Assembly: GCA_023247085.1 (NCBI GenBank)
Contig: JAHFHC010000003.1
Span: 3,407 to 67,406 of the forward strand
Length of the DNA stretch: 64,000 nt
Direction: 5' to 3'
Source of the DNA: Candidatus Micrarchaeota archaeon
GTDB lineage: Archaea > Micrarchaeota > Micrarchaeia > Norongarragalinales > UBA8480
The translations under genes were made by a program, and so were the position numbers. The notes beneath the pieces were generated by a model. The model saw only the letters and a list, made by a program, of their open reading frames with translations, did no database searches and had not been told where the DNA came from. The stretch's first letter is position 1, and every line of letters starts with the position of its first letter. Shown one piece after another: positions 32,335 to 43,633 of this stretch.

Positions 32335-32450
32335 GATAGCGGCCATAGGAGAGTGGAAATACCCAGTCCCATTTCGAACCTGGAAGTCAAGCACTCTAAC
32401 GGCACTCCCAGTACTGTTGTGATCAACGGGAACAGAAGCTGCTGCTATCA
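32335..32450 (+). rRNA. rrf: 5S ribosomal RNA
   Basis: GATAGCGGCCATAGGAGAGTGGAAATACCCAGTCCCATTTCGAACCTGGAAGTCAAGCACTCTAACGGCACTCCCAGTACTG...GCTGCTATC. Helix I closes by 5'/3' complementarity (GATAGCGGC with GCUGCUAUC), and conserved loop C/E motifs are present (CCCAUUUCGAAC, AGUACUG). Confidence 0.7.
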
Positions 32451-37370: not shown

Positions 37371-37583
37371 TTACTGCCTCGCTGCGAGTTTAATGTCTTG
37401 TGCGGTTACTGTTTTTCTTCCTGCGTGTCGTGCAAGTTGAGCTGCTTTTTGTGCTAAGTCAAGTGCGTAGTTTTCAAGAACGTCTCCAAGTGCTTCAGCT
37501 GCATCTGGTGAGACTCGCTCCGCTCCTGCTTTTCTAATCAACCGTTCAACTGGTGCAACGGGTAGATTTGCTTTTGTTTCCAT
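37371..37583 (-). CDS. Archaeal histone (HMf-type)
   Basis: [62 protein letters not shown]. Confidence 0.7.
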
Positions 37584-38169: not shown

Positions 38170-38233
38170 CTCGGCCACTGCTCAAAGCCTTTTGCTTGTT
38201 TATTTATTTGTACTATGCCTATGTATTACTGAA

Positions 38234-39769
38234 ATGCTCGATTTGCTTGATCTTAAATTAAATGGCTTTGAACCCAGAAAGTACCAACTTGATGCTGCGT
38301 GTTCTGTAATAGAAAAAGGCAACACGCTGGTTGTAATGCCAACTGCGCTTGGAAAAACTTATGTTGCGATGTTAGTATTGGCTGAAGTGTTGCGTCGCAA
38401 TCAAAATAACCGCGCTTTATTTTTAGCGCCGACAAAGCCATTGGCAGACCAACAGTTTAAAAAAATTCAAGAAACGCTTCAACTTGGGGACAATGCTTGT
38501 CTGTTAACTGGGGAATTATCTCCAGAAAAACGTTTGCCGTTACTATCTTCAGTGAAAGTTATTTGCGCTACTCCCCAAGCAATTGAAAACGATGTGCTTT
38601 CATCGCGAGTAGATCTAAAAGATTTTGCGCTAATTGTATTTGACGAAGTGCACCGCGCAGTTGGTGAATATTCTTATTCATTCATAGCACAACAGGCGAT
38701 GCGAGTAAAGCCTTCGCCTTTGTTACTTGGTTTAACCGCCTCTCCTTCTTCTGAAAAAGAAAAGATAAAAGAGATCTGTAAAAACCTAGGTGTAACTAAT
38801 TTATTTGTCAGAAGCGAGTCTGATTCCGATGTGAGCAAATATATTCAGCCAGTTGGGGTTGAATGGGAGTTTATCCCGCTTCCGCAAGAGATGAAACAAG
38901 CACGCGATTTGCTAACTGACATTTTGCGTGATTCACTTCAAGAGTTAAAGCGCAGTGGATTTTTAGGATCTGCAGATGCAAATCAAGTCAACAAACGCGA
39001 CTTGTTGGCTCTGCGTGCAACTATTTTGCGTGGTTTATCAAAAAACTCTGCAGGTTATCGCGCATTAACTGTACAAGCAAAAACGCTGTCGATTTTGCAC
39101 GCATTAGATGTACTTGATTCTCAGGGGGTTTCTTCACTTCTATCTTTCCTTAAATCACTTTACGGCCGCGACAAGCCAAGTAAAGCGGCTAAAGAATTAA
39201 CGAGTGATTTTCGATTACAAAAAGTAATTACCGTGGCTGAAAATTTAATTAAAGCCGGCGTTGACCACCCGAAATTTGGCGTGTTACAAGATCTAGCAAA
39301 GCATGCTGTTGAAAACAATCAAAGTGTTATCGTCTTTGCACATTTTCGCGATTCAGTTGAAAAAATTGTTTCTCTATTGAATGAAAAAAGCCTGGGTGCA
39401 AAATCGCTAGTTGGCAGGAGTATAAAAAACGGTTCTGGAATGACGCAGAAAAAACAATTGGCGGTTGTTGAACAATTCAAGAGTAGAGAATTTCCAATAC
39501 TCGTTTGTACCAGCGTGGGTGAAGAAGGTTTAGATTTGACAACTGTTGATCTCGTTGTATTTTTTGAGGCGGTTCCATCTGAAATTCGTTTAATTCAACG
39601 CCGTGGCCGTGCAGGAAGAACAAAAAGTGGCAAAGTGATTGTACTTGTTGCAAAAGGGACAAAGGACGAGGCCTTTCACTGGATTTCTCGACGCAAAGAA
39701 AAGAAAATGAATGATACTTTAAAAAACTTGCCGCAATTAACAATGCAAGATTTCAGTAACGGTGAATAA
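38234..39769 (+). CDS. hef: Hef/FANCM-type superfamily-2 helicase (helicase part only)
   Basis: Motif I VVMPTALGKT, motif II VFDEVHRA and motif VI QRRGRAGR. The likely start is MLDLLDLKLNGFEPRKYQ at 38234. It ends 5 nt before the XPF nuclease ORF. Confidence 0.55.
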   Translation: MLDLLDLKLNGFEPRKYQLDAACSVIEKGNTLVVMPTALGKTYVAMLVLAEVLRRNQNNRALFLAPTKPLADQQFKKIQETLQLGDNACLLTGELSPEKRLPLLSSVKVICATPQAIENDVLSSRVDLKDFALIVFDEVHRAVGEYSYSFIAQQAMRVKPSPLLLGLTASPSSEKEKIKEICKNLGVTNLFVRSESDSDVSKYIQPVGVEWEFIPLPQEMKQARDLLTDILRDSLQELKRSGFLGSADANQVNKRDLLALRATILRGLSKNSAGYRALTVQAKTLSILHALDVLDSQGVSSLLSFLKSLYGRDKPSKAAKELTSDFRLQKVITVAENLIKAGVDHPKFGVLQDLAKHAVENNQSVIVFAHFRDSVEKIVSLLNEKSLGAKSLVGRSIKNGSGMTQKKQLAVVEQFKSREFPILVCTSVGEEGLDLTTVDLVVFFEAVPSEIRLIQRRGRAGRTKSGKVIVLVAKGTKDEAFHWISRRKEKKMNDTLKNLPQLTMQDFSNGE

Positions 39770-39774
39770 ATATT

Positions 39775-40476
39775 TTGAACAACGTAGTTGAATTCGATTT
39801 AGAAGCGATTAGAAAGACCGGCAAGCCACTTATTTTCGTAGATGACCGTGAATTAAAAAGTGAAGCAGCAAAAACCTTGTTTCTCATGGGTGCTTCGCTT
39901 AAGCCACAGCGGCTTGAAGTTTCTGATTTTATTTTATCACCCAGAGTTGCAATTGAACGAAAAACTGCTAATGATTTTGAAGCCAGTGTTTTAGATGGAA
40001 GACTATTCGAACAAGTGAAAAATCTTCTTGAAAACGTAGAACGACCATTGCTGTGCGTCATTGGCCGAGAATTTTTTCGACTTGGTGAAAAGGCGATGCG
40101 AGGGGTATTGATTTCGCTTGTTGTGGACTTTGGCTTACCGGTTTTATTTTTTGACAACGAAAAACAACTCGGGGAATTTTTGTTTCATTTGGCTGAACGT
40201 GAACAAATTAAAGAACACAAGGAACAAAAACTCCGTTTCGGCAAAAAAGGATTTACTTTATCACAACGGCAACAATTCATTGTAGAAAGTTTACCTATGA
40301 TTGGTCCAAATGCGGCAAAGAAGTTGCTCGAACATTTTGGCAGCGTTGAAGCGATTTTCAAGGCAGATGAAAAAGCCCTTCAAGAAGTGAACTTGATTGG
40401 CAAAGAAAAAGCAAAGGAACTGAGAAACATAATCTGCACCAAGTATAAAAACGAATTAAGTGAATCAGAACAATAG
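39775..40476 (+). CDS. xpf: XPF/ERCC4 nuclease with C-terminal tandem HhH
   Basis: ERCC4 motif VDDRE...ERKTANDFEASVLDGRLFEQ and (HhH)2 LPMIGPNAAKKLLEHFGSVEAI. TTG start. It is in a different frame from the helicase ORF. Confidence 0.55.
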   Translation: MNNVVEFDLEAIRKTGKPLIFVDDRELKSEAAKTLFLMGASLKPQRLEVSDFILSPRVAIERKTANDFEASVLDGRLFEQVKNLLENVERPLLCVIGREFFRLGEKAMRGVLISLVVDFGLPVLFFDNEKQLGEFLFHLAEREQIKEHKEQKLRFGKKGFTLSQRQQFIVESLPMIGPNAAKKLLEHFGSVEAIFKADEKALQEVNLIGKEKAKELRNIICTKYKNELSESEQ

Positions 40477-40527
40477 CTACTGTTGATTCGCTCACCTGAA
40501 CCAATAAATACGATTTTGTCTTACTAA

Positions 40528-41820
40528 TTGTATATGAAAAAAAGACCGGATGATATAGAGTTAGGATATTTCGACGTATCAAATGAACAAGCAGTGCGTT
40601 TGCATAACCTTCAAGATGCTGTACATAACTACCTTGAGCAGTCAAAAGCGCGTTATCCAAATTTAATTAATCGTATTTTAAAAGGAAATAAAGCAATAGA
40701 AGAAGTGTTGCATAGGGACTTCGCGGAGTTGAAGCGAGAGTTACACCGGAGACAAATTCGCACAACTCGAGAAGAACTTACTCGCGCTTTTCGTAACCAA
40801 ATAGAAACTGAAACTACTTCATTTCGCAACAGACCAGATTTACGGTCTAAACTTTTCTATAATATGTTTGGAGTATTTCACAAAATAATCCACGGAGACC
40901 CTGGGCTCAAATATCTTTACCCGCGACGCGAAGTAACTGACAATCGCCATTTAGTGCGCCACGGTCCAGTTGAACCTGGGATACTCGCTCAAATAGCAAC
41001 AGAGGCAGCTACGCGAGAATTGAAGCGTCAAGAAGAAGAATTGAAGTTCGACACCGGGCCAGAAGATCCTGCAGCTGAATTGAGATTTGCTCTTCGCACT
41101 GGCGCTAGTGCTGTATTTGACGCTCTTGAAACCCACGAAGTGCTTCCATCGCGCGCAGAATTAATGCGACTTGTTGATGGGGTTAGAATGCTTGTTGACC
41201 GTGACTTGAAGCAAATCTCCCCCCATCATGCGCGTTTACTTCCTGCGCCGCGTACTACTCCAATGCACGCTCGCCAAATGCTAGCGGAGTTAGATGACCG
41301 TGTAGCAGATCATCGTGATGCGCTTACTGCCAAGGCGGTTAGGTTTTTACCTGCATCAACTGCTACTGATCGTGTTTTGGAAACGCTCAAATCACTAGGT
41401 GTGCCTGAAAAAGCCGCGCCTGAATTCGCAAAGCATTTGCACGCACTCGGTTCACCCGGCGATGCCGTTCATGCTCTTAAAAATAGTCAAAGAGTTGCTT
41501 TGTTTTTACATAAGACTGCAAATCATTGGATGGGTACTCTTGAACCACATGAATTTGGCAAAAGAGTACGTGCATTAACTAGTTTCGTAGTTAAGCAGCC
41601 TTATCATGCGGTTACTGAAAGTGTATTAACGGATTTACGTAAAGAGGCGGATGTAGCTGCAGAAAGAGAAGTAAGACGATTACATAAGCCTGGCATGAGC
41701 TACGAGGAGTTATATGCTTCACACCCTAAAGTCGGGGCACTAAAAGACTATGCTGCAGTGCTTCACCTTGCAACTGCTGAACTAGCAGAAGAACGAGCAA
41801 GACAACGGCCACACGGCTGA
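40528..41820 (+). CDS. Hypothetical protein, Arg/His/Ala-rich, GC-richer than flanks
   Basis: 430-aa ORF. Composition is visibly different: many R, H and A, and codons ending in G/C. No motif recognised. Confidence 0.3.
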   Translation: MYMKKRPDDIELGYFDVSNEQAVRLHNLQDAVHNYLEQSKARYPNLINRILKGNKAIEEVLHRDFAELKRELHRRQIRTTREELTRAFRNQIETETTSFRNRPDLRSKLFYNMFGVFHKIIHGDPGLKYLYPRREVTDNRHLVRHGPVEPGILAQIATEAATRELKRQEEELKFDTGPEDPAAELRFALRTGASAVFDALETHEVLPSRAELMRLVDGVRMLVDRDLKQISPHHARLLPAPRTTPMHARQMLAELDDRVADHRDALTAKAVRFLPASTATDRVLETLKSLGVPEKAAPEFAKHLHALGSPGDAVHALKNSQRVALFLHKTANHWMGTLEPHEFGKRVRALTSFVVKQPYHAVTESVLTDLRKEADVAAEREVRRLHKPGMSYEELYASHPKVGALKDYAAVLHLATAELAEERARQRPHG

Positions 41821-41824
41821 TCTT

Positions 41825-42412
41825 TCAACTATTTTTTTCTTCGCCACTTTCAGCAGTAGCGGCGGGTTCGTTTTCACTTTTCTCTTCAACTAGTTCCGGA
41901 ATATGTGTTTCTTCTGCAATTGTTATTTGAAACTCTTCGTGGAACTTCTTTGTTGGTTTTAATTTCCAAGAGTGGCCAACCTTGTGCCGTTCAATATACC
42001 CTTTTTCGCGTAGCTCGCCAACATACTCGTAAATATCGCCCTTGAAATATTTGCGCAAGTCACTTTGCAATAATTCTTTTTTCTTAGCAATTAAAGCAAG
42101 CATCTTCATTGACTTTTTATGTAATTCAATTTTACCCGCAAGTTGTGCAACACTCGCCAACCACTTTGCTTTAACTTGAATTGCAGCAGTTCGCATTTCT
42201 GTGTTAATTACAATTTCAATTGCGTGATCATTTTGCTCATATGCTGATTGCAATGCCTCTAATCCGGCCACGACTACTGCTTCGTCAGCGATGTTTGCTA
42301 ATCTAGCAAGTTCTTCAAACGAAACGCTTCTGTTTGCCATAAATAACGAAGCTTCTAATACGCGTTGTGCTTTGTAATTACTTTCCTGTTCTTCAAATCG
42401 TTGCTGTACCAT
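41825..42412 (-). CDS. scpB: Segregation and condensation protein B-like (two winged helices)
   Basis: LEASLFMANRSVSFEELARLANI... and a second wH KKKELLQSDLRKYFKGDIYEYVGELREKGYIER. Acidic C-terminus. Confidence 0.45.
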   Translation of the reverse strand: MVQQRFEEQESNYKAQRVLEASLFMANRSVSFEELARLANIADEAVVVAGLEALQSAYEQNDHAIEIVINTEMRTAAIQVKAKWLASVAQLAGKIELHKKSMKMLALIAKKKELLQSDLRKYFKGDIYEYVGELREKGYIERHKVGHSWKLKPTKKFHEEFQITIAEETHIPELVEEKSENEPAATAESGEEKNS

Positions 42413-42513
42413 ATAGTTCTCAACTGCGATACTATTATACGCCGCCAGTTTTTAACTCTTTTAGAATAAGCAATTTTAAACGAAAGGCTGAAAGTTCAGC
42501 GGCTACGTTGCCC

Positions 42514-43425
42514 TTAGGTGTTGTTAAATGGCACGTCAAAGGTTTCACTTTCGATAGTCACTTTAACTACTTTTTTTCGTGGATTTATATTGACCGCCGC
42601 AGTTAATTCATTTGAGAAGTAATCCTTCATTAGCGGTGGCCTTGGCATTGAAATTAAGTTTATGAAGTTAGTTTGAATCGCCGTAGGTACGTCTTGAATG
42701 TTAACTATACGTTGTAATAACACCGGCGCATGCGTTATTCCGAGTGAACGAAGCACATAGAGCCTATGAAATCCATTGTTAAGCACTAGCCGGTTACCCA
42801 TTGCTAATACGTTTGCAATCGGAAGCCCATAACCGACCAGGGTAATTAGGCACCTCACAGGAATGCCGGTCATGACTTCGTTTGGCAAAGTAACTGTTTC
42901 TATTGGTTGCGAGAAGCTTCCAATAACGCGTAGATCCGAACTGTCAGACGAGTAAATGACTTGGTTATCTGCATTTTTTAGCCTAGATATTGGCGCGTAG
43001 TCCTTTTTTAGAGAAATCGTAAAATCAACCAAAGCGTCTTCAGTTAATTTCTGCGGTAATTTATTCTTAAGTTTTTCAATAAAATCTAAATAAACGCCAT
43101 TTTGTAACGTTATCAATTTATCGATTTCCACGATTTTGAATTCCCAGTTTGTTTTACTATACGTATTTTGAAAAATTGAACTTTCTTGCACTGGTTTTAG
43201 TTTACGCGCGATACTCTCGCTTACTGGTAAAACTTGAATTGAATCCGCAACTCGACTTTCAGTTGACTGCATTGTTTCAAAAATTCGCGCTACTTTTTCC
43301 CAGTCTTGAACGAGTTTATCGGTGTGCTTTATGTCCTCTTCAGTGCACTTAGTTTGAATATACTCGATAAAGTACGCTTTTGTAAACCCGTGCAAAATAA
43401 GTTTTTGCTTTTGGAAGATTGTCAT
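42514..43425 (-). CDS. Hypothetical protein with ParB/sulfiredoxin-like segment
   Basis: NGFHRLYVLRSLGITHAPV resembles the ParB-N GxxR/HR motif. Length is 303 aa. Confidence 0.25.
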   Translation of the reverse strand: MTIFQKQKLILHGFTKAYFIEYIQTKCTEEDIKHTDKLVQDWEKVARIFETMQSTESRVADSIQVLPVSESIARKLKPVQESSIFQNTYSKTNWEFKIVEIDKLITLQNGVYLDFIEKLKNKLPQKLTEDALVDFTISLKKDYAPISRLKNADNQVIYSSDSSDLRVIGSFSQPIETVTLPNEVMTGIPVRCLITLVGYGLPIANVLAMGNRLVLNNGFHRLYVLRSLGITHAPVLLQRIVNIQDVPTAIQTNFINLISMPRPPLMKDYFSNELTAAVNINPRKKVVKVTIESETFDVPFNNT

Positions 43426-43633
43426 AATATAGTTTATTTATGGATCTATAAGTTTTAACACCTTTTGCGAGCAAGCCAAACCGTTTTATACCCCGCCTGC
43501 TCTTTTTATCTCCTGGCAGCTTCGCGCTATTTAAGTTGAAGTTGTACTGAACTGCTCAACGGCAGATTGAATTGAAATTTAAATCAATTCAAATCTCACA
43601 GCGGGCAAATAAATTAAGGTGTAATATTAGTCA

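What the first reader, a model, noticed from the sequence alone, without database searches (positions are those of the whole stretch)
38192..40476. Hef split into separate helicase and XPF-nuclease ORFs five nucleotides apart
A 525-aa SF2 helicase with Hef/FANCM motifs ends at 39769. An ERCC4 nuclease with (HhH)2 starts at a TTG at 39775 in another frame, and an in-frame stop lies just upstream in the nuclease frame. In Euryarchaeota Hef is one polypeptide, and in Crenarchaeota only the short nuclease (XPF) exists. Side-by-side separate genes represent either a natural gene fission, a precursor state of the fusion, or a recent frameshift pseudogenisation.
Basis: seen in the sequence. Interest (0 to 1): 0.5.

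Follow-up and report, generated by a model that had tools for sequence, protein, structure and literature searches.

The report
Conserved two-gene Hef in Micrarchaeota
The archaeal fork-repair enzyme Hef is encoded here as two adjacent genes, a helicase and a nuclease, and this split is a stable trait of the whole Micrarchaeota group rather than an error or a dying gene, but similar splits are already known in other archaea.

Summary
A Hef-type SF2 helicase ORF (38192-39769, probable true start ATG 38234) stops 5 nt before a Hef-type ERCC4-(HhH)2 nuclease ORF (TTG 39775-40476) in another frame.

- **Not an error or pseudogene.** An independent assembly gives the identical junction. A 90%-identical relative keeps TAA + 5 nt + TTG. 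dN/dS is 0.03 for the helicase and 0.05 for the nuclease. None of 79 DPANN genome loci, almost all Micrarchaeota, has the two parts in one ORF.
- **Linkage varies.** The genes are adjacent in 22 loci, 0.2-1.8 kb apart in 9, divergent in 2 and unlinked in 39. In one genome they lie about 60 kb apart.
- **The break falls in Hef's interdomain linker.** The stand-alone helicase ends in a PIP-box-like motif (QLTMQDF here; 102 of 120 relatives). Fused Hefs carry the same motif just before the nuclease domain.
- **Already-known kind.** This matches the helicase-only, PCNA-binding Hef of Thermoplasma acidophilum. Separate helicase and nuclease genes are also reported for Thaumarchaeota, Caldiarchaeum and some euryarchaeotes.

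Fission versus an ancestral unfused state stays unresolved. The finding is a new lineage for a known arrangement and is of low to moderate interest.

The parts
38199..38210 (+). TATA-like A/T box (tttatttattt), possible archaeal promoter of the helicase-nuclease pair. It would give a leaderless or short-leader mRNA starting near ATG 38234.
   Evidence: Read from the sequence. Inference only, no promoter model was run.
38192..39769 (+). Hef-type SF2 helicase ORF as listed (525 aa from TTG 38192). The probable true start is ATG 38234 (511 aa). It holds the DEAD lobe (38279-38761), the inserted helical bundle (38918-39229) and Helicase_C (39281-39622). Helicase motifs: I PTALGKT 38339-38359, II DEVH 38642-38653, III TASP 38735-38746, VI QRRGRAGR 39596-39619.
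   Evidence: PDB 1WP9 (P. furiosus Hef helicase domain) matches at E 3.6e-119 over residues 11-493. NCBIfam NF010337 'Hef nuclease' matches profile positions 10-508 with 572 bits. dN/dS is 0.027.
39734..39754 (+). PIP-box-like motif QLTMQDF (Q501-F507 of the 511-aa helicase), 4 residues from the C-terminus. It is the predicted PCNA tether.
   Evidence: Qxx[LIMV]xx[FYW] occurs in the last 45 aa of 102 of 120 related stand-alone helicases, and in 88 of them it ends on or one residue before the last residue. The background expectation is 0.022 per tail. In T. acidophilum Hef the equivalent motif (residues 502-508) binds PCNA (PMC4838364). Binding here is inferred.
39761..39765 (+). GGTGA, a Shine-Dalgarno-like sequence inside the last helicase codons, 9 nt before the nuclease TTG.
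   Evidence: Present in the closest relatives L001 and L002, but in only 8 of 22 adjacent loci overall against a 19% background. Its function is inferred.
39767..39774 (+). Helicase stop TAA (39767-39769) plus the 5-nt spacer atatt (39770-39774).
   Evidence: Identical in L081. TAA + 5 nt + TTG is kept in L002 with substitutions.
39775..40476 (+). Hef-type ERCC4-(HhH)2 nuclease ORF, 233 aa, TTG start. ERCC4 domain 39838-40188. Catalytic signature: DDRE 39841-39852, SD 39922-39927, ERK 39955-39963, D67 within 39967-39978. (HhH)2 region 40285-40428.
   Evidence: PDB 1J22 (Hef nuclease) 5.7e-29, 2BGW (A. pernix XPF) 6.7e-29, 1X2I (Hef HhH2) 1.1e-13. NF010337 profile positions 566-780 score 227.8 bits, against 124.8 bits for the archaeal Xpf model NF040956. 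dN/dS is 0.05.

Best explanation
These are two functional, separately translated genes that together carry the parts of the archaeal fork-repair enzyme Hef. The organism is a Micrarchaeota (DPANN) archaeon, a group in which the two-gene state is the rule.

**Gene 1** is a helicase-only Hef: two RecA lobes plus the inserted helical 'thumb' domain. It ends in a PIP-box-like peptide, QLTMQDF.

**Gene 2** is a Hef-type ERCC4 nuclease with an intact catalytic signature and an (HhH)2 dimerisation and DNA-binding module.

The gene boundary lies in what is the disordered interdomain linker of fused Hef, directly after the PIP-like motif.

**Shown here**
- Domain content and intact motifs in both ORFs.
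- Strong purifying selection on both ORFs.
- Conservation of the split across the phylum.
- Variable linkage between the two genes.
- The position of the PIP-like motif.

**Inferred mechanism**
- In this lineage the pair is co-transcribed from a promoter upstream of ATG 38234.
- The nuclease is translated by re-initiation or coupling, using the GGTGA 9 nt before its TTG.
- The helicase is tethered to PCNA at stalled forks through its C-terminal PIP box, as in Thermoplasma acidophilum Hef, and remodels the fork.
- The nuclease homodimer cuts the fork or flap structure.
- The two activities cooperate without a covalent link.
For: **Identity**
- Pfam domains are as described.
- 1WP9 matches at E 3.6e-119, and 1J22, 2BGW and 1X2I also match.
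- The NCBIfam Hef model is covered at positions 10-508 by the helicase and 566-780 by the nuclease. The nuclease scores 227.8 bits on the Hef model against 124.8 bits on the crenarchaeal Xpf model.
- Alignment to the fused Methanothermococcus okinawensis Hef places the break in the linker.

**A real and old split**
- All 96 nuclease homologues are stand-alone proteins of 189-273 aa, apart from one truncated 133-aa copy, one 355-aa fused fragment and one 353-aa protein whose N-terminal extension has no helicase match. All top 120 helicase homologues are 485-612 aa without ERCC4.
- None of 79 DPANN loci is fused. 22 are adjacent, 9 are 0.2-1.8 kb apart, 2 are divergent, 39 are unlinked and 7 are uninformative.
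- In one Micrarchaeia genome the helicase and nuclease lie about 60 kb apart on opposite strands of a 1.3-Mb contig.
- An identical junction appears in an independent assembly, and TAA + 5 nt + TTG is kept in L002.
- dN/dS is 0.027 and 0.053 at dS 0.5-0.6.
- Catalytic residues are invariant in the alignment: D23, R25, E26, D51, E61, R62, K63, D67.

**PIP box**
- 102 of 120 helicases carry the motif in their C-terminal tail (last 45 aa), 88 of them at or within one residue of the C-terminus, against a background of 0.022.
- 38 of 51 fused Hefs carry the same motif just before the nuclease domain.
- The T. acidophilum precedent is documented experimentally (PMC4838364).

**Coupling**
- In 24 adjacent pairs the gap runs from -10 to +88 nt, and 15 of the 24 lie within 11 nt of zero, including ATGA and TAATG overlaps.
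Against: - No expression, proteomic or biochemical data exist for this organism.
- PCNA binding is inferred from a motif, and no PCNA gene lies in this window.
- A Shine-Dalgarno-like sequence at the junction is not general: 8 of 22 adjacent loci against a 19% background.
- About half of the related genomes have the two genes unlinked. Obligate cooperation of the two proteins is therefore not demonstrated.
- The nuclease has no recognisable canonical PIP box. None of the 51 closest nuclease homologues (43-100% identical, mostly from Micrarchaeota) has one at the C-terminus. How it is recruited is unknown.
Confidence: 0.85

Rival explanations
1. A sequencing or assembly indel, or a recent frameshift, has broken a normal single-polypeptide Hef, so this is an artefact or a young pseudogene.
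For: The two ORFs are only 5 nt apart and together cover the Hef profile. A single inserted base in a window of about 2 nt (39766-39767) would fuse them.
Against: - The junction is identical in an independent Logan assembly.
- The same stop, 5-nt gap and TTG occur in a relative with dS about 0.5.
- dN/dS is 0.03-0.05 in both ORFs.
- None of 79 related loci is fused, and many have the genes kilobases apart or unlinked.
- The helicase ends in a conserved C-terminal PIP motif, which is typical of a true protein end.
Confidence: 0.01
2. Programmed recoding, by ribosomal frameshifting or stop read-through, makes a fused full-length Hef from the two ORFs.
For: The gap is very short. In some relatives (L083, L011, L016, L024, L026, L036) the two ORFs share a frame and are separated by a single stop codon.
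Against: - In the window a -1 shift would have to occur exactly at GAA-TAA, and there is no slippery heptamer.
- Across 24 adjacent pairs the gap varies from -10 to +88 nt. The frames coincide in 7 of 24, close to the one-third expected by chance.
- In about half of the genomes the genes are unlinked, so a fused product cannot be required.
Confidence: 0.03
3. The two proteins are functionally independent. The nuclease acts as a crenarchaeal-XPF-like 3'-flap endonuclease and the helicase as a FANCM/taHef-like fork translocase. Their adjacency here is only a remnant of history.
For: - 39 of 72 informative loci have no helicase within 2.5-4 kb of the nuclease, and one genome has them about 60 kb apart.
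- Separately expressed Hef domains are each active in vitro (my knowledge of Komori et al. 2002-2004, not checked here).
- T. acidophilum Hef works as a helicase-only protein (PMC4838364).
Against: - The helicase-then-nuclease order, same strand and gaps mostly under about 45 nt (one of 88 nt) are kept in 22 loci spanning nuclease identities from 92% down to about 43%. That argues for selection on co-expression in this clade.
- The nuclease is Hef-type rather than Xpf-type by profile score.
- The nuclease lacks the C-terminal PIP box that crenarchaeal XPF uses.
Confidence: 0.25

Closest known systems
Hef of Pyrococcus furiosus and other Euryarchaeota (NCBIfam NF010337; PDB 1WP9, 1J22-1J25, 1X2I)
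   Same: It has the same domain set in the same order: an SF2 helicase with an inserted helical domain, a linker with a PIP-like motif, an ERCC4 nuclease and an (HhH)2 module. The helicase matches 1WP9 at E 3.6e-119. The nuclease scores best on the Hef profile.
   Different: Here there are two polypeptides, not one. About 57 profile positions of the linker (509-565) are not covered. Each ORF alone falls below the 610-bit equivalog cut-off.
Helicase-only Hef of Thermoplasma acidophilum (taHef; Rohleder et al. 2016, PMC4838364)
   Same: It is a helicase core without a nuclease domain, ending in a PIP box with a single aromatic residue. In taHef the box (residues 502-508) is the extreme C-terminus and binds PCNA with a KD of 1 uM. 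The window helicase has QLTMQDF at 501-507 of 511 residues, and 102 of 120 relatives carry the motif.
   Different: Here a Hef-type nuclease gene follows immediately downstream. PCNA binding has not been tested for this protein. Four extra residues (SNGE) follow the motif.
Separately encoded ERCC4-like helicase (COG1111) and ERCC4-type nuclease in Thaumarchaeota, Ca. Caldiarchaeum subterraneum and a minority of euryarchaeotes (Nunoura et al. 2011, PMC3082918)
   Same: It shows the same phenomenon: the Hef helicase and the XPF-type nuclease are separate genes.
   Different: The lineage differs (Micrarchaeota, DPANN). In this window and 22 related loci the genes are still adjacent, in the helicase-then-nuclease order of fused Hef. 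I found no paper reporting this for Micrarchaeota.
Short XPF of Crenarchaeota (Aeropyrum pernix 2BGW/2BHN, Sulfolobus XPF; NCBIfam NF040956)
   Same: It is a stand-alone ERCC4-(HhH)2 protein of about 220-230 aa. 2BGW aligns over residues 16-225 at E 6.7e-29.
   Different: The window protein scores only 124.8 bits on the Xpf model (cut-off 300) against 227.8 bits on the Hef model. It lacks the C-terminal PIP motif on which crenarchaeal XPF depends; none of the 51 closest nuclease homologues has one. A Hef helicase gene is present in the genome.
Eukaryotic XPF/MUS81/FANCM family (XPF-ERCC1, FANCM-FAAP24)
   Same: The helicase-like and ERCC4 modules are homologous. FANCM (9EL5) matches at E 1.3e-58, and XPF and FANCM nuclease domains also match. 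FANCM likewise uses a PIP box to bind PCNA.
   Different: The eukaryotic proteins are fused and work as heterodimers, with one module degenerate. Here both modules look catalytically intact and sit on separate chains.

Membership tests
Hef (archaeal helicase-associated fork endonuclease, NF010337) | SF2 helicase core with motifs I, II (DExH), III and VI | tested here: met
   PTALGKT, DEVH, TASP and QRRGRAGR are all present. DEAD and Helicase_C are found by Pfam.
Hef (archaeal helicase-associated fork endonuclease, NF010337) | Helical 'thumb' insertion between the two RecA lobes | tested here: met
   PF21210 matches at 3.8e-15 over residues 243-346. A continuous alignment to 1WP9 covers residues 7-493 of the chain.
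Hef (archaeal helicase-associated fork endonuclease, NF010337) | ERCC4 nuclease with the GDXnERKX3D signature, plus a C-terminal (HhH)2 | tested here: met
   ERCC4 matches at 3.8e-23 and HHH_5/HHH_2 at about 1e-9. D23, R25, E26, D51, E61, R62, K63 and D67 are invariant among 17 relatives. In the window the G of GD is replaced by S (VSD).
Hef (archaeal helicase-associated fork endonuclease, NF010337) | Helicase and nuclease in one polypeptide, and the whole protein reaching the 610-bit equivalog cut-off | tested here: not met
   There are two ORFs in different frames with a stop codon between them. They score 572.4 and 227.8 bits separately. None of 79 related DPANN loci is fused.
Helicase-only, PCNA-binding Hef (T. 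acidophilum type) | Hef helicase core without a nuclease domain on the same chain | tested here: met
Helicase-only, PCNA-binding Hef (T. acidophilum type) | PIP box (Qxxhxxa, single aromatic) at the C-terminus | tested here: met
   QLTMQDF lies 4 residues from the end. The motif is in the C-terminal tail (last 45 aa) of 102 of 120 relatives, at or within one residue of the end in 88, against an expectation of 0.022 per tail.
Helicase-only, PCNA-binding Hef (T. acidophilum type) | Direct binding to PCNA through that motif | not testable with these tools
   This needs ITC or pull-down with the cognate PCNA. The precedent is in PMC4838364.
Crenarchaeal short XPF (NF040956) | Stand-alone ERCC4-(HhH)2 protein of about 220-250 aa | tested here: met
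   The protein is 233 aa. 2BGW matches at E 6.7e-29 over residues 16-225.
Crenarchaeal short XPF (NF040956) | C-terminal PCNA-interaction motif, and reaching the family's curated score | tested here: not met
   No Qxx[LIMV]xx[FYW] occurs in the last 25 aa of the window protein or of any of the 51 closest nuclease homologues. NF040956 scores 124.8 bits against a cut-off of 300.
Frameshift pseudogene or assembly artefact | Relaxed selection, with the break absent from relatives and from independent assemblies | tested here: not met
   dN/dS is 0.027 and 0.053. The junction is identical in L081 and is kept in L002. The split is phylum-wide.

The most novel reading that the evidence does not exclude
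The Micrarchaeota pair may preserve the molecular trace of how Hef was split or assembled. The helicase ends in a full PIP box. The nuclease begins with a second PIP box or its remnant at the same distance from the DxRE anchor as the PIP aromatic in fused Hefs: 10-16 aa in most fused proteins, and MxELVF or QETLTRY in stand-alone nucleases. One relative has ...QKKLTDYLSEGEP*MSEKQETLTRY... in one frame. That doubling would fit a fission by duplication and complementary truncation of a fused Hef. Alternatively it would fit an ancestral pre-fusion gene pair of the XPF/MUS81/FANCM family in a deep-branching archaeal lineage.
Probability: 0.2. Interest if true: 0.45.

Novelty: new member of a known kind. 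Interest (0 to 1): 0.2.

Why it matters
- **Annotation.** In Micrarchaeota the Hef function should be expected as two genes, often unlinked. These genes should not be flagged as frameshifted or repaired by merging.
- **Biology.** The covalent link between the Hef helicase and nuclease is dispensable in a whole phylum. The PIP-box peptide stays with the helicase. This extends the Thermoplasma/FANCM picture of PCNA-tethered fork translocases to DPANN archaea.
- **Evolution.** The finding adds one more lineage to a family (XPF/MUS81/FANCM) whose domain fusions and losses are used to discuss the archaeal roots of eukaryotic repair. It does not by itself polarise fusion against fission.

Tried and rejected
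- **Sequencing error or recent pseudogene.** Rejected.
- **Programmed frameshift or read-through.** Rejected. Gaps and frames vary among 24 adjacent pairs, and the same frame occurs in 7 of 24, about chance.
- **General Shine-Dalgarno-mediated coupling.** Not supported beyond the window's closest relatives: 8 of 22 against a 19% background.
- **Polarising fission against fusion with a tree.** A neighbour-joining tree of 317 nuclease domains over 207 columns puts the window inside nested all-stand-alone clusters of up to 139 sequences. Deep nodes have only 0-36% bootstrap support, so nothing can be concluded.
- **First genome scan.** The scan with the 17-sequence alignment failed because no stretch was conserved enough. 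It was repeated with 8 sequences.
- **Apparent 471-aa extended nuclease in L006.** This, and a -41-nt 'overlap', were artefacts of extending from HSP ends. They were corrected.
- **Paper listed with nine 'hef' hits (PMC12892359).** It has no occurrence of 'hef', 'XPF', 'ERCC4' or 'split gene' in its main text.
- **A second, full-length Hef or a PCNA gene in the window.** Pfam scans of ten further ORFs, the largest ones and those of PCNA-like size, showed housekeeping genes or nothing: aconitase, class-I aminoacyl-tRNA synthetases, CTP synthase, ThiF and S3Ae.
- **Rfam and tRNA scans.** These gave only a 5S rRNA.
Full report
**1. The observation**

The ORF list and the raw sequence confirm the finding exactly.
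- A 525-aa ORF runs 38192-39769 on the + strand and ends in TAA at 39767-39769.
- Five bases (atatt) follow.
- A 233-aa ORF starts at TTG 39775 in another frame and runs to 40476.
- A TGA at 39763-39765 closes the nuclease frame upstream.

Pfam finds DEAD, the PF21210 helical bundle and Helicase_C in the first ORF. It finds ERCC4 plus HHH_5/HHH_2 in the second. The helicase motifs are intact: PTALGKT, DEVH, TASP and QRRGRAGR. So is the nuclease signature: DDRE, SD-x9-ERK-x3-D.

The helicase probably starts at ATG 38234, giving 511 aa. Relatives are 503-513 aa long and cover that form end to end. The alignment to the solved Hef helicase starts at residue 11 of the 511-aa form. A TATA-like box lies 25-35 nt upstream (inference).

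**2. What the two proteins are**

The helicase matches the crystallised helicase domain of Pyrococcus furiosus Hef (1WP9). The E-value is 3.6e-119, over residues 11-493 of the query against 7-493 of 494 in the chain. FANCM, RIG-I-like helicases and Dicer follow far behind.

The nuclease matches three solved structures:
- the Hef nuclease domain, 1J22, at 5.7e-29;
- Aeropyrum pernix XPF, 2BGW, at 6.7e-29;
- the Hef (HhH)2 domain, 1X2I, at 1.1e-13.

On NCBIfam's 781-position Hef model the helicase covers positions 10-508 (572 bits). The nuclease covers positions 566-780 (228 bits). The nuclease reaches only 125 bits on the archaeal Xpf model.

Aligned to the fused 732-aa Hef of Methanothermococcus okinawensis (locus L045), the break falls in the interdomain linker. 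The pair is therefore a Hef divided in its linker. It is not an unrelated helicase sitting next to a crenarchaeal-type XPF.

**3. Whether the split is real**

The organism is a Micrarchaeota (DPANN) archaeon, judging by the names attached to the closest homologues.
- The 96 nuclease homologues found are stand-alone proteins of 189-273 aa. The exceptions are one truncated 133-aa copy, one 355-aa fragment of a fused protein, and one 353-aa protein whose N-terminal extension has no helicase match (fragment status).
- The best 120 helicase homologues are 485-612 aa and none has an ERCC4 domain.

A scan of one genome per species returned 80 loci. Seventy-nine are from DPANN archaea, almost all labelled Micrarchaeota, and one is Methanothermococcus. 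tblastn and ORF tracing on these loci gave the following.

| Arrangement | Loci |
|---|---|
| Helicase and nuclease fused in one ORF | 0 |
| Helicase directly upstream, same strand | 22 |
| Same strand, 0.2-1.8 kb apart | 9 |
| Helicase divergent, more than 3 kb upstream | 2 |
| No helicase within 2.5-4 kb | 39 |
| Uninformative (too little upstream sequence) | 7 |

Further evidence points the same way.
- In one Micrarchaeia genome the helicase lies near 176 kb and the nuclease near 239 kb of the same 1.30-Mb contig, on opposite strands.
- An independently assembled contig (Logan, SRR14366766) is 100% identical to window 39196-43476, junction included.
- The nearest other genome (L002, 90% nucleotide identity in the helicase) keeps TAA + 5 nt + TTG.
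- The next nearest (L001) has an ATGA stop/start overlap.
- Against L002, dN/dS is 0.027 for the helicase (dS 0.52) and 0.053 for the nuclease (dS 0.62). Against L001 the nuclease gives 0.048.

An assembly error or a recent pseudogene is excluded.

**4. Recoding**

Across 24 adjacent pairs the distance from the helicase stop to the likely nuclease start runs from -10 to +88 nt. The two genes share a frame in 7 of 24 pairs, close to the one-third expected by chance. Start codons are ATG in 13, TTG in 7 and GTG in 4 (the choice of start is heuristic).

The window has no slippery site. A shift would have to happen within two bases. Programmed frameshifting or read-through as the normal route is therefore unlikely.

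**5. A conserved peptide at the break**

The stand-alone helicases end in Qxx[LIMV]xx[FYW].
- 102 of 120 carry it in the last 45 residues, and in 88 it ends on or one residue before the last residue.
- The background in the helicase bodies predicts 0.022 per tail.
- The window has QLTMQDF (residues 501-507 of 511; nt 39734-39754) followed by SNGE.

In fused Hefs the same motif sits mostly 0-13 residues before the nuclease domain (38 of 51).

Rohleder et al. 2016 (PMC4838364) reported four relevant points.
- Thermoplasma acidophilum Hef is helicase-only.
- Its last seven residues (502-508) form a PIP box with a single aromatic residue and bind PCNA with a KD of 1 uM.
- Deleting or mutating that box abolishes binding.
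- A similar box is present in the linker of P. furiosus and haloarchaeal Hef.

The window helicase is thus a taHef-like protein. PCNA binding here is inferred, not shown.

The Micrarchaeota nucleases have no such motif at the C-terminus (0 of the 51 closest homologues). This distinguishes them from crenarchaeal XPF.

Their N-termini carry MxELVF or MNxVEF. The phenylalanine lies 10-16 residues before the DxRE anchor, the same distance as the PIP aromatic in most fused Hefs. Some more distant stand-alone nucleases have a full QxTLxxY there.

In loci L083 and L084 the two genes share a frame and are separated by one TAA. Full PIP boxes flank the stop...QKKLTDYLSEGEP*MSEKQETLTRY....

**6. How it most likely works**

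Shown:
- two intact genes under purifying selection;
- the break in the linker;
- a PIP-like helicase tail;
- tight spacing in this clade.

Inferred:
- The pair is one transcription unit.
- The nuclease TTG is served by the GGTGA 9 nt upstream (39761-39765), or by termination-reinitiation.
- The helicase is loaded on PCNA at stalled forks and remodels them.
- The nuclease dimer cleaves fork or flap DNA.

The Shine-Dalgarno-like element is found in the window, L001 and L002, but in only 8 of 22 adjacent loci against a 19% background. It is therefore a local feature. About half of the related genomes have the genes unlinked, so a stable obligate complex is not implied. Independent action of the two enzymes remains a serious rival.

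**7. Fission or precursor**

A search of 1.84 billion representative proteins with the nuclease gave 3794 hits. Among the best 150, stand-alone forms (about 205-270 aa) and fused forms (720-905 aa) interleave at 35-48% identity. Most intermediate lengths are contig-truncated fused proteins.

Named fused near-neighbours include a Ca. Iainarchaeum protein (DPANN, 801 aa), Methanococcus voltae, Thermococcus and Hadesarchaea. Another Iainarchaeum-labelled locus (L078) has a stand-alone nuclease with no helicase in the 1.5 kb upstream.

A neighbour-joining tree of 317 nuclease domains puts the window within nested clusters of up to 139 exclusively stand-alone sequences. The deep nodes have 0-36% bootstrap support. 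This is compatible with a single origin of the state in the group, but it does not polarise the change.

**8. Comparison with what is known, and novelty**

Separately encoded ERCC4-like helicase and XPF-type nuclease were noted in 2011 for Ca. [quoted passage not shown] They are listed as separate markers in later thaumarchaeal genome papers (PMC7819960). Helicase-only Hef with a C-terminal PIP box has been characterised biochemically.

I found no paper describing the arrangement in Micrarchaeota or other DPANN archaea. Public annotations already call the two genes separately.

The finding is therefore a new lineage showing a known arrangement. The modest additions are that the split is phylum-wide, that gene order and tight spacing persist in one clade, and that the boundary sits directly after the PIP box.

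**Verdict**
- Observation: confirmed.
- Interpretation: partly supported. A natural split is supported, error or pseudogene is refuted, and the direction of change is unresolved.
- Interest: low to moderate.

Noticed in passing
L083:2420-4708 (same in L084): In a relative whose nuclease is 44% identical, the helicase and nuclease share a frame and are separated by a single TAA with ATG directly after it. Complete PIP-like boxes flank the stop (...QKKLTDYLSEGEP*MSEKQETLTRY...). A NurA gene lies upstream. Stop read-through would give a fused Hef with two PIP boxes.
   Followed up: partly
window 39775-39852 and the stand-alone nucleases P0001-P0051: The nuclease N-termini carry a conserved MxELVF or MNxVEF segment. 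Its phenylalanine lies 10-16 aa before the DxRE anchor, the same distance as the PIP aromatic in most fused Hefs. More distant stand-alone nucleases have a full QxTLxxY at that position. This may be a degenerate second PIP box.
   Followed up: partly
window 40528-41820 (+): A 430-aa ORF lies 52 nt downstream of the nuclease on the same strand. It has no Pfam or NCBIfam match, and the surrounding 2-kb bin has slightly higher G+C (0.426 against about 0.39-0.40). Beyond this window it was seen only in the 100%-identical contig L081.
   Followed up: no
window 37371-37583 (-) and L082:2616-2816 (-): An archaeal histone gene lies divergently upstream of the Hef helicase, both in the window (with an Lrp/AsnC regulator between them) and in a distant Micrarchaeia genome where the nuclease is about 60 kb away. 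The histone-helicase neighbourhood may be conserved.
   Followed up: no
window 32335-32450 (+): A lone 5S rRNA gene is the only Rfam match in the 64 kb. ARAGORN finds no tRNA gene in the whole window.
   Followed up: no
P0224 versus L078:1532-2116: Records labelled Ca. Iainarchaeum (DPANN) include both a fused 801-aa Hef and a stand-alone nuclease with no helicase in the 1.5 kb upstream. The fused and split states may have changed more than once within DPANN, or the taxon labels may be loose.
   Followed up: no
window 39761-39765; L006 and L013 junctions: The last codons of the helicase often themselves encode a Shine-Dalgarno-like string. Examples are the PIP-box codons ...L-G-E... (CTA GGA GAA, giving AGGAG) in L006, and ...N-G-E-stop (AAC GGT GAA TAA, giving GGTGA) in the window.
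   Followed up: no
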